This document shows, one piece after another, positions 11,641-25,180 of a DNA stretch of 64,000 nucleotides. The stretch comes from a virus, in IMG/VR virus record IMGVR_UViG_3300045999_011383; one strand, written 5' to 3'. A program made the position numbers and the translations under genes. The notes below the pieces were generated by a model, which had not been told where the DNA came from, did no database searches, and saw nothing but the letters and a program-made list of their open reading frames with translations. The first letter of the stretch is position 1; each line of letters opens with the position of its first letter.

Positions 11641-13086
11641 ATGACCGAAAAACCAGGGGAATATACAGCCAAGTACAAGCCAACTCAATTAATTCAAGGA
11701 ACTGGACAGACTGCATTGATAACAGGATGGACTATCAAAGAAGCAGTCCAAAAACATTTGAGTAACCATGAATATGCAGTTATTGGGCAACTATACTCAC
11801 CCACAAGAGGGATTAACTTAGTGGTTCGGAATCTGCTATTAAATCCTCATGTTAGGTACTTAGTAATTCTCAATGGAACTAAGGAAGACAAAAACGCAGG
11901 TGGCTGTCAATGTTTAGCTGACTTTTTTCGTTATGGTTTCAATAAAGGTATTAGTGATATTGGTAGAAAAACCTGGGTAATTTCTTCTTCTATTACTGGC
12001 TATATTGACATCGAGATTGATATGAATGTTTTAAAAAAATTGCGTGAGTCTGTAGAAATCAAGGAAGTACAATCAATAGCCCAAGCTGTTGAAGCGGTCA
12101 GAGATTATGCAACTAAAAAACCCGTTGCACCTTGGGGAACACCCTTAGAATTTCCCATGAGTACAATTGAATCAAATACCCTACCAGGACCCCTCTATGG
12201 TCACAGAATAGAGGGTAAAACCATTGCGGAAACCTGGGTAAAAATCATCCATAGAATTAAAACAACCGGGGTGATCCGACCCACTAGCCATGATGGAACG
12301 TGGCAGGAATTGATAGATTTAATGGCAATTATTACCAATGAGCCTGATGATTTTTACTTTCCTGAACCCAACTATTTGCCAGTAGATAGAAGTTTTTTAC
12401 AAGAATATATTTCTCAGATATTAGAGGACGCGCCTAGTCAAGAAGGGATAAAATACACCTATGGACAAAGGTTACGTTCCTGGTTTGGTAAAGACCAGGT
12501 TCGACAGGTAATTGAAAAGCTAACCCATGACATTAATTCCGCCAGGGCTGTAATGTCTCTGTGGGATATTAAAGAAGACAACGATGAATCTAATCCCCCC
12601 TGTTTAAATCATATTTGGGTAAGGGTAGTCAGCGGTGAACTGTCTTTAACCGCAACCTTTCGTAGTAATGATATGTTCTCAGCATGGCCAGCCAATGCCA
12701 TGGGTTTAAGGGCTTTACAGAAATATATTTATAGTGCTTTATTGAGTTCCCATCAATCCCTCAAATTAGGTCCATTGATTACCATTAGTCAGAGCGCTCA
12801 TATTTATGATGATTGTTTTGAGAATGTCAGCAAGGTAATCTCATCTCAGTATGGTAAGATTGCCAAAAACCAGGATTACTCTGATCCTGTGGGGAATTTT
12901 ATTATTAGTAATCAAGAGGGTAAAGTCGTGGTTGAGCATACCACCCCTGGTTCAGGAGAGGTGGTTAATTGTTATTCAAATAAGTCCGCTTATAAGGTGT
13001 CACAAGAAATAATGAGAGATTGTCCAGGGTTGCAAAACTCCCATGCTATGTATTTGGGATGGGAGTTGTGCAAGTTAAAGTATTAA
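11641..13086 (+). CDS. thymidylate synthase / dNMP hydroxymethylase family enzyme with about 250-aa N-terminal extension
   Basis: ThyA-type motifs are present: PPCLNHIWV (catalytic Cys), FRSNDMFSAWPANAMGL and SQSAHIYDD. The N-terminal half is unassigned. Confidence 0.7.
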   Translation: MTEKPGEYTAKYKPTQLIQGTGQTALITGWTIKEAVQKHLSNHEYAVIGQLYSPTRGINLVVRNLLLNPHVRYLVILNGTKEDKNAGGCQCLADFFRYGFNKGISDIGRKTWVISSSITGYIDIEIDMNVLKKLRESVEIKEVQSIAQAVEAVRDYATKKPVAPWGTPLEFPMSTIESNTLPGPLYGHRIEGKTIAETWVKIIHRIKTTGVIRPTSHDGTWQELIDLMAIITNEPDDFYFPEPNYLPVDRSFLQEYISQILEDAPSQEGIKYTYGQRLRSWFGKDQVRQVIEKLTHDINSARAVMSLWDIKEDNDESNPPCLNHIWVRVVSGELSLTATFRSNDMFSAWPANAMGLRALQKYIYSALLSSHQSLKLGPLITISQSAHIYDDCFENVSKVISSQYGKIAKNQDYSDPVGNFIISNQEGKVVVEHTTPGSGEVVNCYSNKSAYKVSQEIMRDCPGLQNSHAMYLGWELCKLKY

Positions 13087-13201
13087 ATTGTGCTTTAGCG
13101 TTCTTGTTCTTCTTTCTTTTGTTCTTCCTTGAATGTTCGCCAATCATCGAGAACTTTAAACCATTTTTTCTCCAAACACCAAAAATTTAACTCTCAAAAA
13201 A

Positions 13202-14224
13202 CTAGGAAACCTTGATTTCAGCGATCGCTTCTTCTAAATGTTCCTGAATCACTAATCCCTCTCGCTCTAAAATCGCTCGTTTAGCTGCATCTTGGGCAAC
13301 CCTCACAGCTTGAGCCGCAGAAAAATCTTTCATCTGTTCAATAATTCTTGGCCAGTTGATAGATCCCACTTCAATTGCAGATAGTGTTTCCCTCAGTATA
13401 AATTCTAGTTCTTTTTCTCCCGGTTTGGGTACTGCAATCAGATCATCAAATCTCCTCCATAGGGCAGTATCCAAAGATTTATTCAAATTCGTAGCGGCTA
13501 CCATAAGCCCAGAAGAAGGTTGATATTCATCCAAAATTTGCAAAAATGTATTTACTACTCGCTTAATTTCTCCCACTTCCTGAGAATCTTCTCGTGTCTT
13601 AGCAATTGAGTCACATTCATCTAAAAATAATAAACATGGATTTTTTGCAGCATCCTCAAATACCAGTCTTAAATTACTGGCTGTCTCCCCTAAAAAAGAC
13701 GACACCATTGCATCAAAACGTACTTTTAACAGTGGTAAACCTGTATTCCAGGCTAAACGTTCTGCTCCTAATGTCTTTCCACACCCAGGCGGTCCATAAA
13801 GGAGAATTTTTTGCCGATAACGCAGCCCATGATGAGCTAGTCTATCTCTTGCTGCATACTCGCGCTCAATTCTTTGAAAACGCTTTTCAATTTTTTCAGG
13901 CAATACCATGTAATGACGTAGTTTATCCCTTGGTATGGTCGTTACCAAGGGAAGGTTAAAACGCTTACTGGTTGGTAATTCGCTTAAACCCTGTAAGTTT
14001 TCTCCTGTTGTTTGTGTGGCATTTGCAAGAAAGGAAACAGGTTTGATAGGGTCGGGAGATTGATCTCTGGGTTTCTTTTTAGCAATATTCTCTAACTGGT
14101 CAGCAAGGAGGGTATGCCCTTTACTGCGCTCTTCTTCTATGACCAGATATGCAAGTTTGTCAATCGCTTCTTGGTCTGAACTAGCGATCGCTCTGAAAAA
14201 CCTTTTGAGAATCTCTCCCTTCAT
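13202..14224 (-). CDS. classic-clade AAA+ ATPase
   Basis: Walker A GPPGCGKT, Walker B LLFLDECD, sensor VAATN and the second-region-of-homology motif ALWRRFD. Confidence 0.8.
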   Translation of the reverse strand: MKGEILKRFFRAIASSDQEAIDKLAYLVIEEERSKGHTLLADQLENIAKKKPRDQSPDPIKPVSFLANATQTTGENLQGLSELPTSKRFNLPLVTTIPRDKLRHYMVLPEKIEKRFQRIEREYAARDRLAHHGLRYRQKILLYGPPGCGKTLGAERLAWNTGLPLLKVRFDAMVSSFLGETASNLRLVFEDAAKNPCLLFLDECDSIAKTREDSQEVGEIKRVVNTFLQILDEYQPSSGLMVAATNLNKSLDTALWRRFDDLIAVPKPGEKELEFILRETLSAIEVGSINWPRIIEQMKDFSAAQAVRVAQDAAKRAILEREGLVIQEHLEEAIAEIKVS

Positions 14225-14270
14225 ATTGCCTCTCTCTGCAAAAATAGAAGTTTCTTATGTATGTAGTACA

Positions 14271-14299
14271 ATTATACTCTATAACTCAGTGGATGACAA
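14271..14299 (-). promoter_or_regulatory. sigma70-type promoter for the AAA+ gene
   Basis: On the minus strand: TTGTCA, 17 nt, TATAAT. It lies about 45 nt upstream of the ATG at 14224. Confidence 0.5.
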
Positions 14300-14323
14300 A
14301 TTGTATCATGATCTTGCCTTGCA

Positions 14324-14406
14324 TTGCAACTGGGCTTTGACTTGCAATTAACCCAGTCCCTCAAGGTCGGCTTCTTGCAATTAACCCAGTTCCCCAAGTC
14401 CGGTTT
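14324..14406. repeat. decayed CRISPR repeat remnants
   Basis: TTGCAACTGGGCTT (14324..14337) is the exact reverse complement of repeat positions 22-35. Two 30-bp units CTTGCAATTAACCCAGT(C/T)CC(T/C)CAAG(G/T)(T/C)CGG lie at 14341 and 14374. Confidence 0.55.
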
Positions 14407-15543
14407 GCTTCAACTATCCTCAGTCCCTAAGCCCAGTTGCAAGTGTCAAGGGGTTTATTTTCGAAACCCTTATATTTCCTACGTCGTTTCAACTATCCTC
14501 AGTCCCTAAGCCCAGTTGCAAGTGAAGGACGTGATTCTAATGCAGCAAAGAACATCTGTTTCAACTATCCTCAGTCCCTAAGCCCAGTTGCAAGACACAT
14601 TCTTTATCTTTTAAATATAGCTTATACCATCTGTAGTTTCAACTATCCTCAGTCCCTAAGCCCAGTTGCAAGAACACCTTACCACCTTTAAGGTAAGACG
14701 GCACTTTAGGTTTCAACTATCCTCAGTCCCTAAGCCCAGTTGCAAGACAGAATTGAGAGAACTTTCAAGCCATAAGAGAGTAGCGTTTCAACTATCCTCA
14801 GTCCCTAAGCCCAGTTGCAAGATTTTCAAAAATTTAAAAATGAATCTGGACATGAAGATGTTTCAACTATCCTCAGTCCCTAAGCCCAGTTGCAAGAATG
14901 CACATTAACAAAAAAAAACCATGAAAAACCGTTTCAACTATCCTCAGTCCCTAAGCCCAGTTGCAAGAAAACTTATCAGATACTTAATAAGGCTATAGGT
15001 TAGTTTCAACTATCCTCAGTCCCTAAGCCCAGTTGCAAGCTCCCATTTATACAGCTTACTAGCAGCGCAAATAGTTTCAACTATCCTCAGTCCCTAAGCC
15101 CAGTTGCAAGTCAAAAATCAACAGGAATTGGCCACTACTATTGAAGGATGTTTCAACTATCCTCAGTCCCTAAGCCCAGTTGCAAGATAAAGCCGTCCGG
15201 GGAGGCATGACTAATGAGGATGGTTTCAACTATCCTCAGTCCCTAAGCCCAGTTGCAAGTTGAGACAGTTAAACCCAAGGTACTTTAACCTAGTTTCAAC
15301 TATCCTCAGTCCCTAAGCCCAGTTGCAAGAAAGTATTAAAGAAATGCTCAAACTACCGGCATGTTTCAACTATCCTCAGTCCCTAAGCCCAGTTGCAAGT
15401 TGCTACATTTACCATACTTATGGAAACTGTCAATGTTTCAACTATCCTCAGTCCCTAAGCCCAGTTGCAAGTTACTTTGTAAGACGTTATGTAAGACGGC
15501 GATGGAGTTTCAACTATCCTCAGTCCCTAAGCCCAGTTGCAAG
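14407..15543. CRISPR. CRISPR array with 16 repeats of 37 bp and 15 spacers
   Basis: Repeat GTTTCAACTATCCTCAGTCCCTAAGCCCAGTTGCAAG starts at 14407 (this copy begins GCTT), 14486, 14558, 14636, 14710, 14785, 14860, 14931, 15003, 15074, 15150, 15223, 15293, 15363, 15435 and 15507. The spacers are unique and 33-42 bp long. Confidence 0.95.
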
Positions 15544-15886
15544 TCCCGGCTTTCAAAAGCTTTATAAGTCAAGGGTTTCAAAGGCAATTCTGGCGGACCT
15601 GCTAAAAAATCTCATTTCAGCCGCTTAAATCAGCTTGGGTCTTTAAAAGAAACTGAGCGAAACTCTTGCAATGTCATGGTTCTGGACTTTTGGCGAATGT
15701 CCAGGGTTTTTACCCTAGCTTTGATATGCCAAAAAGATGAGATAGTTGCCAGCCATAGTTCCGGCTGGTCTTTGGGGGTTGTCGCCTTCCCCCTTACTTT
15801 TTAGGGTAAAACCCTTACAAGTCATAAGCTAACATTACATTAGCTACCCGTCCAAACTGCGGTAATTTAATATTAACCTAGTCCTA
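15544..15886 (-). ncRNA. candidate leader / tracrRNA-like structured region (hypothetical)
   Basis: 343 nt with no ORF between the nuclease stop and the array. Hairpins at 15682..15704, 15703..15716, 15749..15768 and 15774..15793. GAGATAGTTG at 15739..15748 resembles the repeat end. Confidence 0.3.
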
Positions 15887-17761
15887 TTACTTTGTCAAGC
15901 GTTTTTTCTTAAATCTTTTAGGCTTTTGATAAACCAGCCTAACATTATGGTATTTGACCTCTCCCAATTCAAAACCACCATTCTGTTTATGATTTCTAGC
16001 AGCATTGGTATCAGCTTGTTGGGCAACGTCAAATAATTTACAGTCAGGGTTTTTACAGACAAATTCATACTGCGATCGCCTTTCCCCTTTCTGTCCGCAA
16101 CAATGGCATATTTGAGAGCTATAATTAGCAGGTGGTTCATGGAAGTTGCCACCTCTATTTTCTATTTTTTGCTTGGTTTTAGCTTTCAAGTCACCTAAAC
16201 ATCTTTGTCTCATAATCCAGTTTAAACCACGTTTAGCAGATGCACCATTGTGAGCATATCCCACACCCTCTGGTAATGCTTTTGGATCTACTTGTTTAAG
16301 TAAGTTGGTAACTTGTGTATCCTCCCAAGATATATGTTCATAAGTGCGAGATAATCTTGTGGATAACTTGTGATTAAAGGCATTAGAGGAATTAGCCCCG
16401 CGTTCGTGTAGACGGCTGATTTTTTGTTGTAACTTAGATTCATTCTTTGTCTTGATTCTAGAGGTCTTGTTGCCTAAGCTTTTCCATTTTTTATCATTAA
16501 TTAATTCAGCGTTGTCTAGACGTGATTGTAATTCCTCAATGTGAATTGAGATCCGCTCCCTAGTAAGGTTAGGAAGGAATAAAGCCCCATGATCTGTAGA
16601 CACTACAGCCTGTACCCCAGGGTCAATACCCGCACTCAGATTTTTACCTTTTAAAACTGATGACTGCTTAATTTGTTGCTCAATGAATTTCAGTTTTGAC
16701 TTGATATCTTGGTACTCTTCACTGTCTTCACCAAACTCTTTTTTTACCTTGGGTAACTTATTTGTTAGTACAGACTTTTCCTCTTGCAATGGGTGAGCAA
16801 CTACAATATTAATGTAGTATCCTGACTGCTGTTTGGTAATCATGTATGTCCGTGGCAAAACCTGAGAAAGATTCAATCTTTTTACCCAGTTTTTGTCAGC
16901 AATAGTGATGGGAGTAAGTCCGGTGACAGTAACTATGTTTTTGTCAATGTCAATCCTGTTAGGCGCACATTGATTATTAGATAAAGTTGCAATCTTGTCT
17001 ACATCTTTTTTGAATTTTGGCTTTCTACTGTTTATCCTTTTAGGATCTAAAAATGCCTTCCAAGATTCCTTAAAAAATGCTAACAGCCCGCCAATATAGT
17101 GGGAAGAAACCTGCAAGTCTGGTAAATTTTGGAATGCTCTTAAAGTATTTAATCCAGTCACGTTGTCAAGTTTTTCCAAAGTAGTCAGTTCCCTACCCTC
17201 ATACTTTCCACTAGGGAATGTGCGGTATTTGTGAGGGACTATTTCTATCCGTTGCCAGGGCTTATCGCCTTTAACTAATTTGTACCCCTTGACGTAAATA
17301 ACGCCTTTTTTGGTATTAACTGGAATATTGATATTTTCATCTCTCTTCCAATAATTCCCGCCTGTGGCTATTTGACAGGATAATCCTTCATAAGCACTAT
17401 TTCCAAGCCTTAATGGCACAGGAATAATGCCTTCCAAGCTAAATGGACTCCATCTGGTAAATATCTCAAATTCTTTCTTGCTAACTAATTCCTGTTCTTT
17501 TTTAGACAGCTTAGGCTTATCCTTGGTGGAATAGTAATCTTTAACTAATTGTTGTTGCTCAGGTTTAAGTTTTTCCAGTTTTTCAGTAGCCTTGGTTAAA
17601 TCTGCACTGCGTTTAGCAGCCCAAGCATACCAATCTACGCAGTGATTGTGTAGTTGGTTGGAAAGTGCTAAATTCCACAGCCATGTTAATTCATCTAAGT
17701 AGCGATCGCACACAGCCGCCTGTTCTGATGAGAGTTTGATTTTAATCTTAATTGTCTTCAT
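15887..17761 (-). CDS. TnpB/Cas12-family RNA-guided-nuclease-like protein (candidate type V effector)
   Basis: 624 aa. RuvC-I AGIDPGV, RuvC-II ISWEDT, Zn finger CHCCG...CKNPDC, RuvC-III QADTNAARN. TnpB-like N-terminus IKIKLSSEQAAVCDRYLDELTWLWNLAL. Confidence 0.85.
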   Translation of the reverse strand: MKTIKIKIKLSSEQAAVCDRYLDELTWLWNLALSNQLHNHCVDWYAWAAKRSADLTKATEKLEKLKPEQQQLVKDYYSTKDKPKLSKKEQELVSKKEFEIFTRWSPFSLEGIIPVPLRLGNSAYEGLSCQIATGGNYWKRDENINIPVNTKKGVIYVKGYKLVKGDKPWQRIEIVPHKYRTFPSGKYEGRELTTLEKLDNVTGLNTLRAFQNLPDLQVSSHYIGGLLAFFKESWKAFLDPKRINSRKPKFKKDVDKIATLSNNQCAPNRIDIDKNIVTVTGLTPITIADKNWVKRLNLSQVLPRTYMITKQQSGYYINIVVAHPLQEEKSVLTNKLPKVKKEFGEDSEEYQDIKSKLKFIEQQIKQSSVLKGKNLSAGIDPGVQAVVSTDHGALFLPNLTRERISIHIEELQSRLDNAELINDKKWKSLGNKTSRIKTKNESKLQQKISRLHERGANSSNAFNHKLSTRLSRTYEHISWEDTQVTNLLKQVDPKALPEGVGYAHNGASAKRGLNWIMRQRCLGDLKAKTKQKIENRGGNFHEPPANYSSQICHCCGQKGERRSQYEFVCKNPDCKLFDVAQQADTNAARNHKQNGGFELGEVKYHNVRLVYQKPKRFKKKRLTK

Positions 17762-18499
17762 GTCCGTCGTCTTCCTGTTGTTTTTGTCAATTGGTGTTGA
17801 TGTAAATAGCTGTTTTGTGCTATATTGTTAGTTGCCGCTCCCCCAAACTAGCGGCTAAGTACCTGGTAATAGAAACGTCGTTATTGGTACTAACCGCGTT
17901 TTTTGGTATTTATTTAGGATAGCACAAATTTGGTAATTTAAAAATATTTTTTATATTAAAAATTAGACATTAACTGATAGTTGCATACACCCCAAATCTT
18001 TACCCCAGTCATGTTTTAACTAATTCCTGCTTTCTTTTGTAAGACAATAATGTCAGACAATGTAAACAATGTAGACAAATAATCTTGTTTGAAAACAGCC
18101 ACAGAACCCGTCATTTTAACCACTGGGTTCTTATTACTTATTGACAATTAGTAGATTAATAAATGTCTGCTGATTAGGCAGACGGTATTGCACAGGTGAC
18201 AACCGAGTTATTAGTATAGCATCATAGCAAGTTATTTATACAACAATTAAACAATTGCAAAATTCCGTATACTTTAGGGTTGGCACTGGAAAACTATAAG
18301 GATATTATAGGGATATAGAGTATCTAAGCGGAATGCCCTTCATAAGAGGATTTGAGAAAAGAACTAACACCACAGATATCTGTTGTTCCTGAGACAAAGG
18401 TGCGCCTGCTGCGCTTAAACACTATTACAGAAAAAACAAATAGACTTTGTTTCAGAATTTATAAAGCAATTTTAAAGCGTACTTATTGCATAAATAAAA

Positions 18500-18532
18500 A
18501 AATACCCACTAAAGCGTGTTAGTGGGTAGTGG
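18500..18532 (-). terminator. terminator hairpin, identical 33-bp copy at 28483..28515
   Basis: ACCCACTAA-6 nt-TTAGTGGGT stem with an A-run on the plus strand (a T-run on the minus strand), downstream of the 18562 gene. Confidence 0.55.
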
Positions 18533-18561
18533 AAATAAGCTACTTCACTGGAATACTTGCA

Positions 18562-18813
18562 TTAAATTAACTCCAGCAAAATTGTTAATGCGGACTGGAT
18601 ACTGTTAATAGCATCTTTGATTAATGCCCGCTTTTGGGTTGCGGGTTTGTTTGGACTAGAAACTAATAACTCATCATTAGCTATTAGTTTCATGAATTTG
18701 GAAATGTTGGGGTCTTCACCCCACAGGCAGCCAAACTCCAAAGCTTTATTCTCTAGCTTGGCTTTGTCTTCCATTGAGATAGAGAGCGTGATGCTCTCTT
18801 GTTTTCTACTCAT
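18562..18813 (-). CDS. hypothetical protein
   Basis: 83-aa ORF with a 4-nt overlap onto the upstream gene. Confidence 0.5.
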   Translation of the reverse strand: MSRKQESITLSISMEDKAKLENKALEFGCLWGEDPNISKFMKLIANDELLVSSPNKPATQKRALIKDAINSIQSALTILLELI

Positions 18814-19319
18814 AGAGAAATATTCCCTTTATTTTCAATCCACCATTTTGCGGACGTGGGAATTTTCTTATTGTTTTTTAGTGCGATCGCAACATCATCT
18901 ATTGCTCTAACTGCTATAGATTTAGCCCATTTAATCTGCTTTTCAGAGCCTTCAAACTTTAGCGACTCTACATAATTAAGAGCATCTTCTCTGTTGCTTT
19001 CTGAGACTGGATCTTCTTCCTCGATCTCATAATCGCACGGAATACTATCTAAATTCTTTAAAACAGCACTGAAAATTATTTCATTTATAGGTACAGAAGA
19101 GAGAATAAAACTCTCTTCTCTGATTACCTCTAGAACTAAATCTTCAGCAATAGATTGATAGGTTTCACCTGGCTCTAACTGGAACTCAGAATTGCTCACT
19201 AAATATTCCACTACCTTTCTAACGGCTTTCTGGCATTCTGGATTTCTAAAATCCACACGAATCATTTGAAGCCCAGAAGTGTCAAATTTATTTAAAAGCC
19301 TTCTTTGTTTGATAGCCAT
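18810..19319 (-). CDS. hypothetical acidic protein
   Basis: 169-aa ORF, divergent from the RAMP operon. Confidence 0.5.
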   Translation of the reverse strand: MAIKQRRLLNKFDTSGLQMIRVDFRNPECQKAVRKVVEYLVSNSEFQLEPGETYQSIAEDLVLEVIREESFILSSVPINEIIFSAVLKNLDSIPCDYEIEEEDPVSESNREDALNYVESLKFEGSEKQIKWAKSIAVRAIDDVAIALKNNKKIPTSAKWWIENKGNISL

Positions 19320-19477
19320 GATACAATACCTTTAAACGATGTTTTACTTAGAGGCTTGGGCTTGCTCCCCTTGCCTCTATATTTATATCATTACACAATA
19401 TTTTATCCTTGTCAATAGCAAAGTGTCCGTATTTTAAATATTTTGTACTGAACTTTTGAAGTTGTAAATTGTACAAC

Positions 19478-19579
19478 ATAAAAAGAAGTAAACGACGTAA
19501 CCGACATCAACTAAAACAGCAACTAAGAAAATTAGATGCGATCGCACTTAAACAAATCCATAGCAGCTTGGGGGGATAA
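19478..19579 (+). pseudogene. start-less fragment related to the N-terminus of the 30825..31118 protein
   Basis: Hand translation IKRSKRRNRHQLKQQLRKLDAIALKQIHSSLGG* versus MKTKRQARRHRHLLKKQLRELDAIAKKQINNNYNLAASSWGG. No ATG, and a stop lies just upstream. Confidence 0.35.
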
Positions 19580-19785
19580 ACCCGACATATCTAAGCTTTT
19601 AAGTAGATAGCCCAACGGGAAATACTGCTTTCTTGTTCTGATAAACCCACCAAAAAACAAAGTCCTTTAATTAAAGAAGCGATCGCGCTTATTCAAAAAG
19701 GATTGTCAATTTTAATAGAATTAATTTAGTTTTTAAAGCGCTCTTGACAGGGCGTTTTTTGTTGTTTAAAAACTTAATTTAATTG

Positions 19786-19815
19786 TTGATTAATTGTTAA
19801 TCAATGTGTTATACT
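19786..19815 (+). promoter_or_regulatory. possible promoter of the RAMP operon
   Basis: TTGATT, 18 nt, then TGT-TATACT (extended -10). It lies about 40 nt upstream of the GTG at 19853. Confidence 0.35.
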
Positions 19816-19852
19816 AAATCAAGATTAAATTACTTTAGTTTGGGAAAGTAAA

Positions 19853-20371
19853 GTGACAACCAATCATTACGGAATGCCACAGACACGAGACAAGTGTTAT
19901 GGCGTGGCTGCTTGTTTAAGTTATTGGGTTTTTAAATGCCGTGACAGGAAACGTAGTCCAGCCATGGGAACTAAAACCTGGACATATTTGGAATCTTCTA
20001 TCAAGAATTGTGCAGAAATATCCACAAATTTAGAAGATTATCTACAAAATCTTTGTGATAAATTGATATCGCAATTAAGACCTGTAGAGCTAACCAAAAT
20101 TATTCAACCAACTCAGAGAATACTGAGAATTAATGAAGATGCAACTGAAATCAAGGAACTACCAATAGATCGAAGTTTGGTTTTTATGGGGTGGCTTGAC
20201 TTGCTTGCCGATATTGAACCCCACGGATTTAGTGAGTGGGACGTAATGGAATTGTTAAGAACAAAAACAGGAGTTATTCAAGTAATTTGTCGTCTGCGAT
20301 TTGAAGAAGATAGAAGTGTGGGGCTTGATGAACCAGAAGAATTTATTGAGGTAGAGGTGACAAATGTTTGA
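19853..20371 (+). CDS. first gene of the RAMP operon, possible small-subunit (Cas11-like) protein
   Basis: 172 aa with a GTG start after GGGAAAG. The 8-nt overlap with the next gene and the size fit, but I saw no diagnostic motif. Confidence 0.3.
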   Translation: MTTNHYGMPQTRDKCYGVAACLSYWVFKCRDRKRSPAMGTKTWTYLESSIKNCAEISTNLEDYLQNLCDKLISQLRPVELTKIIQPTQRILRINEDATEIKELPIDRSLVFMGWLDLLADIEPHGFSEWDVMELLRTKTGVIQVICRLRFEEDRSVGLDEPEEFIEVEVTNV

Positions 20372-21497
20372 TAATTATAATATTTTTGACAGAGAGAAAT
20401 TAACCCTGCATTGCTTAATCACGCTACAGACACCATTGAGCCATATAGGCGAAGTGTCTGGCAATGTTAGCAATCTGAAAACTACTAAGTTATTGGACTT
20501 TGAAGGTAATCCTAGAAGTGTTTTTGTCTATTCTGGTAATGCAATCAGAAACGGTATTTTGCGCCGGGTAGGAGTGGCAGCAGCACTCACGGAATTAGGA
20601 ATTAAGGTAAATCCAGATACTCACCATACAATGTTTGCTGGCGGGCGAATTGATGGGGGGACAGCTTCGGATATGGAACTGGATAAAAAGATCCGGGTCT
20701 TTATGCCTTGGCTATCAGTATTGGGAACAGCCAAACCCATAGGTGTTTTTGGGACTAAAGAAGCCCAGATGGTAGCTGGTAGAAGTAATATTGGCAGTGG
20801 TTATTTAGTCTGCTATGAGTCAGCAGAATACGTTTACAACCAACTCCCAGCAGTTTTACCACCGGAAATACAGCCAACTATGGCCTTATTAATTGAAGCT
20901 AAAACCAGACTTTCTTCCGACCCTTTTGTATCCACAAAATCAGAAGACTTAACTAACTGGAATCAAGCAAAATCAGAATGTTTGCCACTGATCAAAAAAG
21001 CAATGAAAACATGGACTGAATACTTAACAATTGATCAGACAACTCGCAGAGATAGCACTTTAGATCCCAACTTACTCAAATTTCTACCATCAGAAGTACA
21101 AGCACAATTAACAGGTGATGGTAAAACTAAAGAAAAAACTAAATCAGATCAGATGATTGCGTCTGACAGGCTGATCATGCCCGGTGCTAAACTTTATTCT
21201 CGATGGGATCTAACTTGTACTCAAATAGAAGAGGGATGGATATTTGATACTTTACTCAAGTTTTCAGAATCACCTTATATTGGTGGTAAAGGCAATCGTG
21301 GCAATGGCAGGGTTCATCTTGATTTCTGGTTTCAGTCTGACCATGAACGGGGGTTATTGTGTTCTCTGAAAGATGGAATTATGGGAGATAGGTTTCTTAA
21401 TTCCCATCAAAAATATCGGGAATATATCAATCAGTATCAGCAGTTTTTAAGTGAAGCAAAAACATCCAAGGAATTAAGGAAGTTGTTAGGTGAATAA
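20364..21497 (+). CDS. RAMP protein, Cas7/Csf2-like backbone subunit
   Basis: 377 aa. N-terminal LHCLITLQTPLSHIG, then YSGNAIRNGILRR, and a C-terminal glycine-rich loop YIGGKGNRGNGRV typical of RAMPs. Confidence 0.6.
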   Translation: MFDNYNIFDREKLTLHCLITLQTPLSHIGEVSGNVSNLKTTKLLDFEGNPRSVFVYSGNAIRNGILRRVGVAAALTELGIKVNPDTHHTMFAGGRIDGGTASDMELDKKIRVFMPWLSVLGTAKPIGVFGTKEAQMVAGRSNIGSGYLVCYESAEYVYNQLPAVLPPEIQPTMALLIEAKTRLSSDPFVSTKSEDLTNWNQAKSECLPLIKKAMKTWTEYLTIDQTTRRDSTLDPNLLKFLPSEVQAQLTGDGKTKEKTKSDQMIASDRLIMPGAKLYSRWDLTCTQIEEGWIFDTLLKFSESPYIGGKGNRGNGRVHLDFWFQSDHERGLLCSLKDGIMGDRFLNSHQKYREYINQYQQFLSEAKTSKELRKLLGE

Positions 21498-22176
21498 TTT
21501 AAAAGTCACTGCATATTTGTCTACACCGATTGGTGTCTATGACAATTGGAGTCCTTCTTTGGAGGGACTTCTTACCTATAGATTACTAGAAGAAAATAAT
21601 CTATTGTCTCCCAATCCCACCGCAGAGCAAGTAGCAAAGGTTCAGAATTTTTTAGTAAATGAATTACCGCTTAAACAGAATACAATAATGAATGATAAGT
21701 ATTTCTGTGTAAGTTCACCTTGCTATGTGGTTCAAGGTGAGGCTACTGATAAATATCGGAAAAGATGGGACAATCACGAAAATAATCTGAACTGGGGAAA
21801 AAGAAAGCCTAAATTCTTGACGGGTGAAGGTGCAGAAAAGTCCTATGATTTACCGCTATACACTCGTTTAACAAATAGTATTAGTTGGTTTGTAACAGGC
21901 GACAGAACCAAGATTGACGCTCTATTGTCACCTGTTACCCATATTCAGAAAAAACGAAGTTATGGCAATGGTGAAGTTAAGCAATGGCAACTAGAAATAG
22001 TTTATGACGACTATCATTTGTGGCGAGATAATAAACTAATGCGTCCTATGCCCGTGAAGTTAATATCACAAAAAATAGATAATCCTCAAATGATTTGGGG
22101 ATGGAAAAGCCCGTCTTGGTTAGCAGAAAATAAAGAACTTTGTTATATGCCAAAGGACAATGTGATTTATGCTTAG
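21490..22176 (+). CDS. RAMP protein, Cas5/Csf3-like
   Basis: 228 aa. LKVTAYLSTPIGVYDNWSPSLEGLLTYRLL N-terminus and a KKRSYGNGEV glycine loop. Overlaps both neighbouring genes. Confidence 0.5.
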   Translation: MNNLKVTAYLSTPIGVYDNWSPSLEGLLTYRLLEENNLLSPNPTAEQVAKVQNFLVNELPLKQNTIMNDKYFCVSSPCYVVQGEATDKYRKRWDNHENNLNWGKRKPKFLTGEGAEKSYDLPLYTRLTNSISWFVTGDRTKIDALLSPVTHIQKKRSYGNGEVKQWQLEIVYDDYHLWRDNKLMRPMPVKLISQKIDNPQMIWGWKSPSWLAENKELCYMPKDNVIYA

Positions 22177-22915
22177 TAATGGCTCTGGGGTTCAATACCC
22201 TTGGTTGAAAAAGAAAATTACTAAAGCTATTAATTTCATTAATCAGTGGCTAGAACAATGCAACTATCAGGTTTATGCAAGTATTTCCGGTGGTAAAGAT
22301 AGCTTAGTAATGTCTCATTTGATCAGGAAAGTTTACCCTGATTGCCCGTTAGTTTGGGTAAATCAAGGGCTGTTAGCAGAATGGGATGATTGTATTGAAT
22401 TATTGGAATACTTGAAAACTCAAAACTGGAACATTATTGAGCTTTGTCCAGTTCGTGATTTATGGCATTTATACATAGATCACGGAGTTCCGTTAGAGGG
22501 TACGATGGATACAAAAGTAGATAAATTAATCAACCAAAAATTGATTTATGATCCATTGCAAGAATACCAAGAAATCAACAATATCAAAGGGTACGCATGG
22601 GGAATAAGGAAGCAAGAAAGCAAAAACAGAGCATTTTATCTTAACAAGTACGGTGAAGTTCATGAACTAAAAAATGGGTTAATTTGTTGCTCGCCTATTG
22701 CTCACTGGACTACAGAAGAAATATGGCAGTACATAGATATGTACTCACTCAAATACCCAGCAATTTATGACATTAACAAAATGACAGTCAGGAATGGTTG
22801 CCCGATTGGAACTACAGGAGCAAACTGGGGTAGATTAGCTGAATTAAAAAGATATTACCCCAATATTTACAACCAATTTGTTGATAAATTCCCACAAATA
22901 TCGAACTATGTCTAA
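22169..22915 (+). CDS. PAPS-reductase/CysH-like PP-loop protein
   Basis: PP-loop SISGGKDS and WGIRKQESKNR. I saw no C-terminal ECGLH motif (it reads RNGCPIG instead). Confidence 0.8.
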   Translation: MLSNGSGVQYPWLKKKITKAINFINQWLEQCNYQVYASISGGKDSLVMSHLIRKVYPDCPLVWVNQGLLAEWDDCIELLEYLKTQNWNIIELCPVRDLWHLYIDHGVPLEGTMDTKVDKLINQKLIYDPLQEYQEINNIKGYAWGIRKQESKNRAFYLNKYGEVHELKNGLICCSPIAHWTTEEIWQYIDMYSLKYPAIYDINKMTVRNGCPIGTTGANWGRLAELKRYYPNIYNQFVDKFPQISNYV

Positions 22916-23666
22916 TTGCTACCTTTGCGCTAAACCAGCATCAAATCCACTAGAATTATCCAATACTTTCACCATGCACTCATCGGCTAAGTGTCCAGAC
23001 TCTAAGCTGCTGTGCGATCGCTGCTATTCTACAATTTCTGGTAATCAAAAGCAGTTATGGTATTGGAATGAAGGTAAAAATAAGTGGTCAAAACTGTGGG
23101 GACGATCTTTGTCCAGGGTGTACCAAGGCGATACTTTAATAGCACCAATAATTAAAGGCACTCACACTGAAGGCAAAGATACTTTCAGTGTGGTTAGAAA
23201 CTTATTGACGCGGGTAGAAATCAGGGAATATTTATTAAATCCTCCTGAGCCACCGTTCACTATCGCTATAGCAGAATCAGGACAAAAACACATTATCCCA
23301 TGGGCATTAGAAGCGCGTAGCTGTAACTTTTTTCCAATTCAATTTGAGTTAGACACGGTTTATATTGACAACAGATTCAAGGAATCTTTGCAAGTATATG
23401 AACAACTAATGGGATTAGGGTTTAGTAAGTCTGAAATTGATTCAGGAAACTACAGAAGCGATAGATTGATGAAAGTGTTTGATAAATTTTGGGAACTTGA
23501 GGAATCCATAAAAGCCATTAGAGGGACTAGATTAATGGAATTAATAAATTACGTCGCTCAACTACAATCAAGTGCCGTCGTGGCGGAAATAAAGCCAATT
23601 CCTGTAATTCCTGTTTCTCCCACGAGTCCAGACAAATCAAATCCAGTTCAGTTATCGTTGTTTTAG
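22908..23666 (+). CDS. Zn-ribbon protein, Csf1-like large-subunit candidate, with C-terminal clamp-binding motif
   Basis: The ATG at 22908 overlaps the cysH-like stop (ATGTCTAA). N-terminal CYLC...CPDSKLLCDRC. The C-terminus is NPVQLSLF followed by the stop. Confidence 0.45.
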   Translation: MSNCYLCAKPASNPLELSNTFTMHSSAKCPDSKLLCDRCYSTISGNQKQLWYWNEGKNKWSKLWGRSLSRVYQGDTLIAPIIKGTHTEGKDTFSVVRNLLTRVEIREYLLNPPEPPFTIAIAESGQKHIIPWALEARSCNFFPIQFELDTVYIDNRFKESLQVYEQLMGLGFSKSEIDSGNYRSDRLMKVFDKFWELEESIKAIRGTRLMELINYVAQLQSSAVVAEIKPIPVIPVSPTSPDKSNPVQLSLF

Positions 23667-23699
23667 CAAAAACCCTTATAATTCCGATCCGTTAAAAAT

Positions 23700-23774
23700 A
23701 ACGCTGGAGTCTTTAAAATCAACGCTGGAGTCAGCAAAGATAACGCTGGAGTCCTTAAAATTAACATTGGAGTC
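23700..23774. repeat. four 21-bp-phased iterons AAC(G/A)(C/T)TGGAGTC
   Basis: Cores at 23700, 23721, 23742 and 23763. They are followed by the AT-rich tandem AACAATCTTAATT x2 (23805..23830). The same core occurs at 41848..41901. Confidence 0.7.
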
Positions 23775-23854
23775 GTTAATTTTAAGGTTTCATCTATATT
23801 ATTAAACAATCTTAATTAACAATCTTAATTAAGAGTCTCTAGTTTAAGTACAAA

Positions 23855-23886
23855 TAAAAATGCTCACCAAGGTGCATGGTGAGCAT
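23855..23886 (-). terminator. rho-independent terminator after the C5-methyltransferase operon
   Basis: ATGCTCACCA-7 nt-TGGTGAGCAT stem. On the minus strand it is followed by TTTTTATTT. Confidence 0.6.
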
Positions 23887-23930
23887 AATATGTTGAAACC
23901 TACTCAATGCAAGTATAGCAAATTTAACCC

Positions 23931-24920: not shown

Positions 24921-25180
24921 TTATGTTTCACCTGTATTGCACCTTGAATTATCAAAAATCTCCAATCAATATTGTCCCTAATTCTGTTAGAATTACGCTT
25001 ACACATAAACCAACTTTGAGATAATGTTCCACGCCAAAATATTGTATCTAAAATCATAACAAAATACTCTATGCCCAGAAGTTTTAAATAAAACCCACCG
25101 GGCTTTAAGTTAACCACAAAGATGGTTTGTCCACCTTTTTCTATTACAAAACCTATGTCTTTAGTTCTTTGAATTTTCAT
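24917..25180 (-). CDS. hypothetical protein
   Basis: 87-aa ORF with a 4-nt overlap onto the methyltransferase gene. Confidence 0.45.
   Translation of the reverse strand: MKIQRTKDIGFVIEKGGQTIFVVNLKPGGFYLKLLGIEYFVMILDTIFWRGTLSQSWFMCKRNSNRIRDNIDWRFLIIQGAIQVKHK

What the first reader, a model, noticed from the sequence alone, without database searches (positions are those of the whole stretch)
13202..23666. One array, two unrelated effector-type modules, and no adaptation or Cas6 genes
Within 10.5 kb there is a single CRISPR array, a class 2 TnpB/Cas12-like nuclease and a class 1 type IV-B-like module. I found no cas1, cas2, cas4, cas6 or csf5 anywhere in the 64-kb window. Several questions follow:
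- Which module uses the crRNAs?
- Who processes the crRNAs (host Cas6, RNase III with a tracrRNA, or the nuclease itself)?
- Do spacers come from host adaptation machinery acting on a repeat that mimics a host array?

A classic-clade AAA+ ATPase gene lies directly at the array end, co-oriented with the nuclease gene, and could be an accessory factor. A phage-borne hybrid arrangement of this kind would be unusual.
Basis: inference. Interest (0 to 1): 0.8.

Follow-up and report, generated by a model that had tools for sequence, protein, structure and literature searches.

The report
Cyanophage Cas12p locus beside type IV-B
A cyanophage carries three separate pieces side by side: a complete, already described Cas12p CRISPR unit with its own tracrRNA and array, an array-less type IV-B module, and an ATPase gene copied from the host, so this is a defence-gene island and not a hybrid system sharing one array.

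Summary
There is a 16-repeat CRISPR array, a Cas12-like gene and a five-gene type IV-B module. No ORF of 80 aa or more in the window hits Cas1, Cas2, Cas4 or Cas6.

The "hybrid" reading does not hold.

- **Nuclease.** It is Cas12p ("Cas12 hacker", type V-P), 88% identical to the cryo-EM-solved protein. In that homologue, tracrRNA use, a GTN PAM and thioredoxin-activated DNA cleavage were shown experimentally.
- **tracrRNA.** I located a promoter-preceded tracrRNA between the gene and the array. Its anti-repeat changes together with the repeat across relatives. Every relative with downstream DNA keeps the order cas12p, tracrRNA, leader, array.
- **Type IV-B module.** It is cas11-csf2-csf3-cysH-like-csf1 and occurs in 30 viral contigs, down to 27% identity. 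Most of these have no array or Cas12p nearby, including one with a 94-99% identical module. Cas12p also occurs without the module.
- **AAA+ ATPase.** It is an orphan ietA copied with its promoter from a host ietAS operon, and no relative has it.
- **Spacers.** They probably come from host type I-D adaptation acting in trans. This is inferred. The repeat itself was found only next to cas12p.

The verdict is new members of known kinds. The modest new points are a likely Nostocales host for Cas12p phages and a widespread phage-borne type IV-B lineage.

The parts
15887..17761 (-). cas12p ("Cas12 hacker", type V-P effector), 624 aa
   Evidence: It is 88% identical over residues 1-615 to PDB 9JFS/9JG3 "Cas12p" (E = 0). 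It also hits NCBIfam C2c8/V-U2 and the TnpB family and PADLOC Cas12u2 at 2.9e-56. RuvC residues D380, E480 and D584, the CxxC...CxxxxC zinc finger and the TrxA-pocket residues W104, F107, L109, I112, I113, V115, L117, C129 and I131 are conserved. These were read from the alignment against residues named in bioRxiv 10.1101/2025.01.20.633832.
15870..15898 (-). sigma-70-like promoter of the tracrRNA (TTGACA, 17 nt, TAATAT), overlapping the cas12p stop codon
   Evidence: It matches 10 of 12 consensus positions and places the transcription start at about 15863, the first base of the invariant tracrRNA 5' motif. The hexamers are conserved in relatives (alignment A1).
15660..15863 (-). tracrRNA, about 200 nt; the 3' end is approximate
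   Evidence: The 5' motif ACCGCAGTTTGG is invariant in 12 Cas12p loci, including chromosomal relatives at 50% protein identity. Its GUUU can pair with the AAAC at the repeat 3' end, the pseudoknot described for Cas12p. In the scaffold, 17 of 30 predicted pairs keep pairing through changes on both sides. The anti-repeat has three parts: 15749-15738 pairs with repeat nt 23-34, 15689-15682 with nt 8-15, and 15672-15666 with nt 1-7. The duplex energy is -28.5 kcal/mol, and the anti-repeat covaries with the repeat in relatives, reaching -44.5 kcal/mol for a contiguous 33-nt duplex in L019.
15544..15659 (-). array leader
   Evidence: It lies between the tracrRNA and the first repeat. It has conserved blocks in relatives, such as AAGCGGCTGAAATG...TTTTT (A1). 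The degenerate repeat lies at the opposite end of the array, which fits a leader on this side.
14407..15543 (-). Cas12p CRISPR array: 16 repeats of 37 nt and 15 spacers
   Evidence: In crRNA sense the repeat reads CTTGCAACTGGGCTTAGGGACTGAGGATAGTTGAAAC. Every relative with downstream DNA has an array starting 285-343 nt after the cas12p stop codon on the same strand. Spacer 14 (14523-14557) matches the CL131-type V-U2 effector gene of other cyanophages.
14341..14406 (+). two spacerless 33-nt relic repeats of a second, CL131-type V-U2 array
   Evidence: They share 32 of 33 bases with the repeat of the second array in L011 and of the mini-array in L030 (CTTGCAATTAAC.CAGTTCCCCAAG..CGGTTTCAC). In those relatives the repeat sits next to an effector 79% identical to CL131 gp061.
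14324..14337 (+). 14-nt inverted copy of the 5' part of the Cas12p repeat, at the trailer end
   Evidence: It is 100% complementary to every repeat. No equivalent was found in the relatives checked. Its function is unknown and it is probably a recombination scar.
13149..14310 (-). host-derived insertion carrying an orphan ietA (AAA+ ATPase gene at 13202-14224) with its own promoter at 14299-14271
   Evidence: PADLOC IetA 2.5e-79 and NCBIfam IteA 6e-67. The segment is 90.7% identical in DNA to the host-like contigs L180 and L181, and the similarity ends about 16 nt into ietS. There the 96%-identical ietA is followed by an 870-aa Peptidase_S8 protein, IetS. No ietS is present in the window. The promoter-like site matches 11 of 12 positions. 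The gene is absent from all Cas12p and Csf loci.
18562..19319 (-). two small ORFs of 83 aa and 169 aa between the two modules; function unknown
   Evidence: No family hit in Pfam, NCBIfam or PADLOC. The 83-aa ORF is 94-96% conserved upstream of the Csf module in L011-L013. The 169-aa ORF has no homologue in any fetched locus.
19853..20371 (+). type IV cas11 (small subunit), 172 aa
   Evidence: PADLOC typeIV_Cas11 2.5e-6. It is always the first gene of the conserved module in relatives.
20364..21497 (+). csf2 (type IV Cas7), 377 aa
   Evidence: PADLOC Csf2_0_IV 9e-35 and NCBIfam cas7_csf2 4.5e-7. It has more than 300 homologous clusters.
21490..22176 (+). csf3 (type IV Cas5), 228 aa
   Evidence: PADLOC Csf3_0_IV 2.5e-40 and NCBIfam cas5_csf3 2.7e-9. 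The homologue in L002 carries Pfam Csf3.
22169..22915 (+). cysH-like gene (PAPS-reductase / PP-loop ATP pyrophosphatase fold), 248 aa
   Evidence: Pfam PAPS_reduct 6e-18. The SGGKDS PP-loop is at residues 39-44. This is the signature accessory gene of type IV-B (PMC7937560, PMC8175902).
22878..23666 (+). csf1 (type IV Cas8-like large subunit), 262 aa
   Evidence: PADLOC Csf1_0_IV 1.6e-21 and NCBIfam cas8u_csf1 4.4e-8.

Best explanation
The region is an accessory island of an uncultivated cyanophage, probably one infecting Nostocales. It holds three independent cargo units.

**1. A self-contained type V-P CRISPR unit on the minus strand.** The order is cas12p, then a tracrRNA with its own promoter, then a leader, then a 16-repeat array.
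- The tracrRNA pairs with each repeat through a three-part anti-repeat and through a GUUU:AAAC pseudoknot.
- The Cas12p-tracrRNA-crRNA complex, activated by host thioredoxin, cuts double-stranded DNA next to a GTN PAM. The likely targets are competing phages.
- DNA cleavage, tracrRNA use, the PAM and thioredoxin dependence were shown for an 88%-identical homologue and are inferred here.
- Trimming of the crRNA at the repeat:anti-repeat duplex, by host RNase III or another host nuclease, is inferred.
- New spacers are most likely added in trans by a host type I-D Cas1-Cas2-Cas4 machinery. The grounds are the same GTN PAM, 37-nt repeats with the cyanobacterial CTTGCAA...TTGAAAC ends and spacers of 33-42 nt. 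This step is inferred only.

**2. An array-less type IV-B module (cas11-csf2-csf3-cysH-like-csf1).** It works independently of the phage array. My best guess is that its Csf filament loads RNAs that are not phage crRNAs and acts with the CysH-like ATP pyrophosphatase in counter-defence or competition between mobile elements. This mechanism is unproven for any type IV-B system.

**3. An orphan ietA AAA+ ATPase.** It was copied with its promoter from a host ietAS defence operon. It is not a CRISPR accessory and may act as a decoy against host IetAS, which is speculative.
For: **Identity of the nuclease**
- It is 88% identical along its full length to Cas12p in PDB 9JFS.
- The catalytic, zinc-finger and TrxA-pocket residues are conserved.

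**The array belongs to Cas12p**
- Every relative with downstream DNA has an array 285-343 nt after the cas12p stop codon, on the same strand.
- The sequence between gene and array is more conserved than the repeats themselves.
- A promoter sits exactly upstream of the invariant tracrRNA 5' end.
- 17 of 30 scaffold pairs show compensatory changes.
- The anti-repeat changes together with very different repeat middles in L001, L002, L007, L016, L019 and the window.

**The modules are independent**
- The Csf-CysH module is present in 30 IMG/VR loci at 27-97% identity. Cas12p or arrays occur only in the closest subclade.
- L030 has a module that is 94-99% identical but no Cas12p.
- L001, L007, L023 and L024 have Cas12p, tracrRNA and array but no Csf genes within the flanks.
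- The distance and orientation between the two modules vary from 0.9 to about 11 kb in the same direction, and they diverge in the window.

**ietA**
- The gene is absent from all relatives.

**Targets**
- Spacer 14 matches the V-U2 effector gene of other cyanophages, and the L030 copy has a GTA flank.

**Adaptation in trans**
- Hsieh and Peters (bioRxiv 10.1101/2021.02.06.429022) argue this for cyanobacterial V-K and V-U2 arrays.
Against: - No expression or processing data exist for this phage.
- The PAM is not confirmed here. The three protospacer variants of spacer 14 have 2-4 mismatches and flanks GTA, GCA and TCA.
- Only 1 of 15 spacers has any identifiable target. Spacers 1, 2 and 5 have no exact match in IMG/VR.
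- The type IV-B module does sit within 10 kb of cas12p in most Cas12p phage contigs, so a functional interplay in that clade is not excluded.
- Only 10 kb on each side of each relative locus was examined, so arrays or cas genes further away would have been missed.
- Nothing here tests the function I propose for the type IV-B module or for the orphan IetA.
- The host type I-D machinery was not identified in any specific host.
Confidence: 0.8

Rival explanations
1. The locus is a true hybrid. [quoted passage not shown] One array would then feed both a class 1 and a class 2 effector.
For: - The Csf module is within 10 kb of cas12p in about 9 of 11 Cas12p viral contigs, despite rearrangements.
- In some relatives (L007, L019) the repeat has a Cas6-style hairpin followed by an 8-nt ATTGAAAC tag.
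- Some relatives have a second array just downstream of csf1 (L002, L004, L016, L040).
- A type IV-B system with a mini-array has been reported in archaeal viruses (PMC10848311).
Against: - The module is conserved in many phage contigs with no array or Cas12p within 10 kb. These include L030, whose module is 94-99% identical to the window's.
- Cas12p arrays occur without Csf genes.
- The window repeat has no strong Cas6-type hairpin.
- There is no cas6 or csf5 in the window.
- The one purified type IV-B complex bound non-CRISPR RNAs (PMC7937560).
Confidence: 0.1
2. The AAA+ ATPase at the array end is an accessory factor of the Cas12-like system, for example a remodeller or a TnsC-like partner.
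For: It is adjacent to the array end and co-oriented with cas12p. Cas12k, which has similar repeats and a similar PAM, works with the AAA+ protein TnsC; this rests on my own knowledge.
Against: - It is absent from all 20 or more Cas12p loci examined.
- It is classified as IetA.
- It lies in a 1.16-kb segment that is 90.7% identical in DNA to a host ietAS locus and carries its own promoter.
- Neither TnsB nor TniQ is present in the window.
- Cas12p was active in E. coli with only thioredoxin as a cofactor.
Confidence: 0.03
3. The Cas12p array is a decaying, non-functional remnant, and the phage keeps only the genes.
For: The trailer end shows rearrangement scars: relic repeats and an inverted partial repeat. 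Only one old spacer has a recognisable, imperfect target.
Against: - 15 of 16 repeats are identical.
- The tracrRNA, its promoter and the anti-repeat are intact.
- The catalytic residues are intact.
- Spacer content differs between close relatives: 109 unique spacers among 219, which points to ongoing turnover.
Confidence: 0.05

Closest known systems
Type V-P CRISPR-Cas12p ("Cas12 hacker"; Wang et al., bioRxiv 10.1101/2025.01.20.633832; PDB 9JFS and 9JG3)
   Same: - The effector is 88% identical, with the same RuvC, zinc-finger and thioredoxin-binding residues.
- The locus is built the same way: a tracrRNA between the gene and the array, and a 37-nt repeat ending in AAAC that pairs with GUUU near the tracrRNA 5' end.
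- It is phage-borne and has no adaptation genes.
   Different: - The repeat middle and the matching anti-repeat differ here, and the anti-repeat is split into three parts by an insertion of about 48 nt.
- The paper left the hosts undetermined. Here the context points to cyanophages of Nostocales.
- The paper does not mention a neighbouring type IV-B module.
Type V-U2 (C2c8) CRISPR-Cas of cyanobacteria and of Aphanizomenon phage vB_AphaS-CL131 (PMC6293099)
   Same: - It is a small TnpB-derived effector next to an array in a cyanophage, with no adaptation genes.
- The NCBIfam and PADLOC V-U2 models hit the C-terminal half of the protein.
- The repeats have the same cyanobacterial ends.
   Different: - It is only about 29% identical to the CL131 effector.
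- The CL131 authors detected no tracrRNA.
- The window keeps only two relic repeats of a CL131-type array and carries a spacer against that effector gene.
Type IV-B CRISPR-Cas (for example Mycobacterium sp. JS623, PMC7937560; Fuxiviridae archaeal viruses, PMC10848311)
   Same: The gene set is csf1, cas11, csf2 and csf3 plus a cysH-like gene. There is no DinG, no Cas6/Csf5 and no adaptation genes. In most relatives there is no array.
   Different: - It is carried by tailed cyanophages, not plasmids.
- The gene order is cas11-csf2-csf3-cysH-csf1.
- The sequences are very divergent, far below the NCBIfam cut-offs.
- It sits next to a type V locus, although type IV-B was reported to co-occur negatively with other CRISPR systems.
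Type V-K (Cas12k) CRISPR-associated transposons of cyanobacteria
   Same: The effector is of similar size. The tracrRNA lies between the gene and the array. The PAM is GTN, the repeats are 37 nt with similar ends, and adaptation by type I-D in trans has been proposed.
   Different: Cas12p keeps an active RuvC site. No tnsB, tnsC or tniQ is present. The AAA+ protein here is IetA, not TnsC.
IetAS anti-phage system (Gao et al. 2020, from my own knowledge; PADLOC and NCBIfam models)
   Same: The ATPase matches the IetA models. A 96%-identical copy sits in a canonical ietA-ietS pair on host-like contigs.
   Different: Only ietA was captured. The IetS protease partner is missing, so the complete system is not present.

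Membership tests
Type V-P (Cas12p / Cas12 hacker) | Effector homologous along its full length to Cas12p | tested here: met
   It is 88% identical over residues 1-615 to chain 9JFS_A (E = 0, 1268 bits).
Type V-P (Cas12p / Cas12 hacker) | Intact RuvC D-E-D site and zinc finger | tested here: met
   D380, E480, D584 and C552/C555/C569/C574 align with D378, E478, D582 and the zinc finger of Cas12p.
Type V-P (Cas12p / Cas12 hacker) | Thioredoxin-binding (TB) domain with its hydrophobic pocket | tested here: met
   W44, Y45, W47, W104, F107, L109, I112, I113, V115, L117, C129 and I131 are conserved, and only L51 is changed, to R. Binding itself cannot be tested here.
Type V-P (Cas12p / Cas12 hacker) | tracrRNA between cas12p and the array, with a GUUU:AAAC pseudoknot and an anti-repeat | tested here: met
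   The tracrRNA runs from 15863 to about 15660. It has an invariant 5' motif, a covarying scaffold and a covarying anti-repeat.
Type V-P (Cas12p / Cas12 hacker) | GTN PAM | tested here: inconclusive
   Only spacer 14 has matches. The flanks are GTA (L030, 3 mismatches), GCA (L011, 2 mismatches) and TCA (CL131, 4 mismatches).
Type V-P (Cas12p / Cas12 hacker) | Thioredoxin-dependent cleavage of double-stranded DNA | not testable with these tools
   This needs biochemistry with cyanobacterial TrxA.
Type IV-B CRISPR-Cas | Core genes csf1, csf2 and csf3 plus a cas11-like small subunit | tested here: met
   PADLOC gives Csf1 1.6e-21, Csf2 9e-35, Csf3 2.5e-40 and type IV Cas11 2.5e-6. The NCBIfam hits are weak and below the curated cut-offs.
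Type IV-B CRISPR-Cas | Associated cysH-like gene | tested here: met
   Pfam PAPS_reduct 6e-18, with an SGGKDS PP-loop. The gene lies inside the operon, between csf3 and csf1.
Type IV-B CRISPR-Cas | No DinG, no Cas10-like HD protein, no Cas6/Csf5 and no adaptation genes | tested here: met
   No such family appears in any window ORF of 80 aa or more.
Type IV-B CRISPR-Cas | No CRISPR array of its own | tested here: met
   The only working array in the window is tied to cas12p. Nineteen Csf loci, from L030 to L056, have no array of three or more repeats within 10 kb, although L030 has a 2-repeat V-U2 mini-array. Some relatives (L002, L004, L016, L040) do have an extra array near csf1, and its owner is unresolved.
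IetAS defence system | IetA AAA+ ATPase | tested here: met
   PADLOC IetA 2.5e-79 and NCBIfam IteA 6e-67, which is below the cut-off.
IetAS defence system | Adjacent IetS serine protease | tested here: not met
   IetS (870 aa, Peptidase_S8) follows ietA in L180 and L181. A tblastn search of IetS against the window finds nothing, and the DNA similarity ends about 16 nt into ietS.
Type V-K CRISPR-associated transposon | tnsB, tnsC and tniQ next to a RuvC-dead Cas12k | tested here: not met
   No transposase or TniQ family is present in the window. The AAA+ protein is IetA. The RuvC site is intact.

The most novel reading that the evidence does not exclude
In this cyanophage clade the type IV-B Csf-CysH module and the Cas12p system might cooperate. 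One version is that the Csf complex loads crRNAs from the phage arrays or from the host. Another is that both draw on host thioredoxin, since PAPS reductases are classic thioredoxin clients and Cas12p needs thioredoxin. Either would make this a natural class 1 / class 2 partnership and would give the first functional handle on type IV-B. My evidence argues against an obligate link, but it does not exclude a link that arose only in this clade.
Probability: 0.07. Interest if true: 0.8.

Novelty: new member of a known kind. Interest (0 to 1): 0.35.

Why it matters
The headline puzzle dissolves. The array has a clear owner, a published effector type with a known mechanism. What remains useful is more modest.

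- **Likely host for Cas12p phages.** The Cas12p paper left the hosts undetermined. The ietA gene is 88-96% identical to Nostoc, Anabaena and Dolichospermum-type genes. A relative carries NblA. Csf2 homologues are binned with Dolichospermum. One spacer matches an Aphanizomenon phage. Together these point to cyanophages of bloom-forming Nostocales, so cyanobacterial thioredoxin is the natural cofactor to test.
- **A phage lineage with type IV-B.** A large group of uncultivated phages conserves an array-less type IV-B module with a cysH-like gene. This could be a tractable system for the still unknown function of type IV-B.
- **A CRISPR island.** These phages accumulate up to three CRISPR-type modules in one island and carry spacers against each other's effector genes. 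That is direct evidence of CRISPR conflict between phages.
- **An orphan ietA.** A phage copy of one half of a host two-gene defence system is a candidate anti-defence decoy.

Tried and rejected
- **Near-identical records.** Megablast of 12000-25000 against plasmid and phage collections found nothing. No cultured relative exists, and the portal is at most 25% identical to any GenBank phage.
- **The repeat in hosts.**
  - The exact repeat was absent from GTDB representative genomes and IMG/VR.
  - Its 21-nt 3' core was absent from GTDB genomes.
  - The repeat of relative L019 was also absent.
  - In JGI metagenomes the core occurs only on two further Cas12p phage contigs.
  - The idea that the repeat mimics a specific host array therefore found no support.
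- **A wasted scan.** A degenerate pattern of repeat ends only (15 specified bases) returned just single chance hits in unrelated genomes.
- **Spacer targets.** Spacers 1, 2 and 5 had no exact match in IMG/VR. A search of the whole array against GenBank phages found only the spacer 14 match.
- **PAM from related arrays.** A BLAST search of 109 unique spacers from related arrays against all loci gave mainly self-matches and too few targets to derive a PAM.
- **Rfam.** No known RNA family is present in the window.
- **Solved structures for the Csf proteins.** Sequence searches gave only marginal hits, such as Csf2 at E = 0.84 and Csf3 at E = 0.11. The PADLOC models were decisive instead.
- **CAST (type V-K) reading.** I considered it because of the repeat ends and the AAA+ gene, and rejected it. 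There is no tnsB or tniQ, the RuvC site is active, and the ATPase is IetA.
- **The array trailer.** I first read 14341-14406 as degenerate Cas12p repeats. It is in fact a relic of a different, CL131-type array.
- **Not used.** I ran no structure predictions, because a solved structure at 88% identity made them unnecessary.

Full report

Yes. The window has a CRISPR array of 16 copies of a 37-nt repeat at 14407-15543, with 15 spacers of 33-42 nt. Fifteen repeats are identical and the one at 14407 has a single mismatch. Shuffled sequence gives no such matches.

Four further features are as described:
- A 624-aa ORF at 15887-17761 on the minus strand hits the Cas12f1-like TNB and OrfB_IS605 domains, NCBIfam C2c8 (type V-U2) and the TnpB family.
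- Five overlapping genes at 19853-23666 on the + strand hit type IV models.
- A 340-aa AAA+ gene at 13202-14224 on the minus strand lies just past the array.
- Pfam scans of essentially every ORF of 80 aa or more found no Cas1, Cas2, Cas4, Cas6 or Csf5.

The window is phage DNA. It encodes a J-like tail tip protein, tail proteins L and M, a Mu-type portal, DnaB, a beta clamp, KilA-N and DNA methylases. It has no close cultured relative.

**2. What the nuclease is**

A search of solved structures shows the protein is 88% identical over its whole length to "Cas12p" in PDB 9JFS and 9JG3. This is the "Cas12 hacker" of Wang et al. (bioRxiv 10.1101/2025.01.20.633832). The paper describes a phage-encoded miniature type V-P effector with these properties:
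- a tracrRNA of about 185 nt and a 37-nt repeat;
- a GTN PAM;
- cutting of both DNA strands only when bound by host thioredoxin.

Reading the alignment against the residues named in the paper, several features are conserved here:
- the RuvC triad (D380, E480, D584 in window numbering);
- the zinc finger;
- the hydrophobic thioredoxin pocket.

The older "V-U2" label for cyanophage systems (vB_AphaS-CL131, PMC6293099) refers to a cousin that is only about 29% identical.

**3. Who owns the array?**

I fetched 20 or more loci encoding relatives at 63-100% identity, plus two chromosomal cyanobacterial relatives at 50%. In every one with downstream DNA, an array starts 285-343 nt after the cas12p stop codon on the same strand.

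The repeats always begin CTTGCA and end TGAAAC, but their middles differ widely. The stretch between gene and array is, by contrast, strongly conserved. Four results identify that stretch as a tracrRNA:
- It starts with an invariant ACCGCAGTTTGG, found 11-44 nt after the stop codon in all 12 Cas12p loci tested, including the 50% relatives. The motif is absent from the array-less relatives Cr-LKS4, L025 and L026.
- In the window a TTGACA-17-TAATAT promoter at 15898-15870 places the transcription start exactly at that motif, at 15863.
- The GUUU of the motif can pair with the AAAC at the repeat 3' end. This is the pseudoknot seen in the Cas12p structure.
- The next 115 nt or so fold into helices in which 17 of 30 pairs keep pairing through changes on both sides.

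Downstream comes an anti-repeat that changes together with the repeat. It is a contiguous 33-nt duplex in L019 (-44.5 kcal/mol). In the window it is split into three parts, at 15749-15738, 15689-15682 and 15672-15666, with a duplex energy of -28.5 kcal/mol.

So the unit is cas12p, tracrRNA, leader, array. It is complete, and it answers both "which module uses the crRNAs" and "tracrRNA or Cas6". Which nuclease trims the duplex is not shown; host RNase III is the usual expectation.

**4. The type IV module**

PADLOC models classify the five genes as follows:

| Gene | Coordinates | Best model hit |
|---|---|---|
| cas11 | 19853-20371 | type IV Cas11, 2.5e-6 |
| csf2 | 20364-21497 | 9e-35 |
| csf3 | 21490-22176 | 2.5e-40 |
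| cysH-like | 22169-22915 | Pfam PAPS_reduct, 6e-18 |
| csf1 | 22878-23666 | 1.6e-21 |

The cysH-like protein has the PAPS-reductase fold and an SGGKDS PP-loop. This gene set, with no DinG, no Cas6 and no adaptation genes, is the definition of type IV-B (PMC7937560, PMC8175902, PMC11656645).

The function of type IV-B is unknown. The one purified complex bound heterogeneous non-CRISPR RNA. Virus-borne type IV-B has been reported in archaeal viruses (PMC10848311). I found no homologue of this Csf2 in GenBank phages.

**5. Are the two modules linked?**

They are co-conserved in part. The module lies within 10 kb of cas12p in L002, L004, L011-L013 and L016-L021. The spacing ranges from 0.9 to about 11 kb, usually in the same direction, whereas the two diverge in the window.

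The wider picture argues for independence:
- Csf2 has more than 300 homologous clusters, against 56 for Cas12p.
- A profile-based scan of IMG/VR gave 30 loci with the same five-gene module at 27-97% identity. Only the closest subclade has Cas12p or arrays.
- L030 has a module 94-99% identical to the window's but no Cas12p. It has a CL131-type effector and a two-repeat mini-array instead.
- L001, L007/L008 and the chromosomal L023 and L024 have Cas12p, tracrRNA and array but no Csf genes in the flanks.

This is the pattern of two separate cargo units that share a variable island in one phage clade. A link that arose only in that clade cannot be excluded. I put it at about 7-10%.

**6. The AAA+ ATPase**

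It matches IetA, the ATPase of the two-gene IetAS defence system (PADLOC 2.5e-79; NCBIfam 6e-67). Its homologues are chromosomal genes of Nostoc, Anabaena and many other cyanobacteria at 73-97% identity.

On the host-like contigs L180 and L181, next to rpsU, a 96%-identical ietA is followed by an 870-aa Peptidase_S8 protein, IetS. Window 13149-14310 is 90.7% identical in DNA to those contigs. The similarity starts about 89 nt upstream of ietA and stops about 16 nt into ietS, and IetS is not encoded anywhere in the window.

A strong promoter-like site at 14299-14271 precedes the gene. None of the Cas12p or Csf loci has the gene. It is therefore a recent capture from the host, not a CRISPR accessory.

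**7. Where spacers come from, and what they hit**

No adaptation genes are present. The repeat, and its 21-nt core, occur only next to cas12p in GTDB representative genomes, IMG/VR and JGI metagenomes. Copying of a specific host array is therefore not supported.

The properties of the array match what Hsieh and Peters describe for cyanobacterial V-K, V-U2, III and I-D arrays, which they propose are served by type I-D Cas1-Cas2-Cas4 in trans:
- 37-nt repeats;
- conserved repeat ends;
- spacers of 33-42 nt;
- the GTN PAM of Cas12p.

I adopt that as the most likely route. It is inference.

One spacer has a target. Spacer 14 (14523-14557) matches the 3' part of the CL131-type V-U2 effector gene:

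| Target | Matching bases | 5' flank |
|---|---|---|
| L011 / L028 | 33 of 35 | GCA |
| L030 | 32 of 35 | GTA |
| CL131 | 31 of 35 | TCA |

The L011 effector is 79% identical to CL131 gp061. The phage thus carries a guide against a rival phage's CRISPR effector gene. The imperfect matches and mixed flanks mean the PAM is not confirmed here.

**8. Scars at the array end**

The two spacerless 33-nt repeats at 14341-14406 share 32 of 33 bases with the repeat of that CL131-type system in L011 and L030. Next to them is a 14-nt inverted copy of the Cas12p repeat, at 14324-14337. Immediately beyond lies the boundary of the ietA insertion, at 14310.

The window's ancestor probably carried a second type V system here. 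It was lost, and ietA now sits at that spot.

**9. Verdict**

The locus consists of new members of known kinds: type V-P Cas12p, type IV-B and an orphan IetA. It is not a hybrid.

The modestly new points are these:
- a likely Nostocales cyanophage home for Cas12p;
- a large phage-borne type IV-B lineage;
- an island stacking several CRISPR-type modules;
- a spacer aimed at a rival phage's effector gene;
- a captured half of a host defence system.

Interest is 0.35.

Noticed in passing
window 13149-14310: A host-derived segment carries ietA and its promoter but stops about 16 nt into ietS. It is 90.7% identical in DNA to host-like contigs that hold the full ietA-ietS pair. A phage copy of only one half of a two-gene defence system could act as a decoy against host IetAS.
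   Followed up: partly
window 14341-14406 and 14324-14337: Two spacerless relic repeats of a CL131-type V-U2 array lie here, in inverted orientation compared with L011. Beside them is a 14-nt inverted copy of the Cas12p repeat. Together they look like scars of a lost second type V system at the array trailer.
   Followed up: partly
window 14523-14557 (spacer 14); L011:15324-15358; L030:13626-13660; CL131 63137-63170: The second-oldest spacer matches the effector gene of the CL131-type V-U2 system in other cyanophages. The 5' flanks are GCA, GTA and TCA. This fits CRISPR conflict between phages, with possible PAM or seed escape in the targets.
   Followed up: partly
L013, L029, L002, L004, L016, L040 (cysH position in the Csf module): In modules whose Csf2, Csf3 and Csf1 are 70-95% identical to the window's, the cysH-like gene is only 28-30% identical. 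A different allele appears to have replaced it within an otherwise conserved operon. L002 and L004 also have an extra acetyltransferase and other genes inserted.
   Followed up: no
L002:12295-12330 versus L002:11025-11060 and the same site in other loci: A spacer in the L002-type Cas12p array matches the cas12p gene itself. It has 1 mismatch to its own copy and 0 to L016, with a TTG flank that is not GTN. This could be self-regulation or a guide against rival cas12p genes.
   Followed up: no
L002:6947-7670, L004:6882-7672, L016:5797-6246, L040:16631-17080: Some relatives carry a second array just downstream of csf1. Its repeat, CTTGCTAAGGGGCGAAAGGATTGGGGTGGGAGGAAAC in reverse complement, is about 70% similar to that phage's Cas12p repeat and lies on the opposite strand. 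Which effector uses it is unresolved.
   Followed up: no
L011:12930-16662 (also L028, L183): Close relatives carry three CRISPR-type modules in one island: type IV-B, Cas12p with its array, and a convergent CL131-type V-U2 effector (587 aa, 79% identical to CL131 gp061) with its own long array.
   Followed up: partly
L006 (Cylindrospermopsis phage Cr-LKS4) 8001-10007 and 13308-13961: This isolated phage has a 45%-identical Cas12p-like gene annotated as a transposase. It has no array and lacks the tracrRNA 5' motif. A Csf3-like gene (32% identity, E = 6e-31), annotated as hypothetical, lies 3.3 kb away.
   Followed up: no
L007 / L008 8833-9825: A gene with the Pfam AcrVA2-like domain sits directly upstream of cas12p in one phage backbone that lacks the Csf module.
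   Followed up: no
L055:10001-10419: In one relative csf2 is reduced to its first 50 codons and is joined to the 3' part of csf1, so the type IV-B module has decayed there.
   Followed up: no
window 23692-23832 and 41843-41962: There are two similar sets of iteron-like repeats. Each has 21-nt units containing AACG(C/T)TGGAGTC, four and three copies respectively, followed by 13-nt repeats (AACAATCTTAATT and TAACAATCAAATT). One set lies just after csf1. The other is inside or upstream of the ORF that precedes dnaB. They could be origin or partition sites.
   Followed up: no
window 63874-64000: A perfect 18-nt tandem repeat (TTCTTCTCTCTTTCGTGC, 7 copies) runs into the end of the window.
   Followed up: no
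window 11641-13086: A 481-aa protein combines a thymidylate-synthase-like domain with a C-terminal PterinBD-DUF4346 domain. It sits next to a phage-encoded DNA polymerase III beta clamp gene (10375-11511).
   Followed up: no
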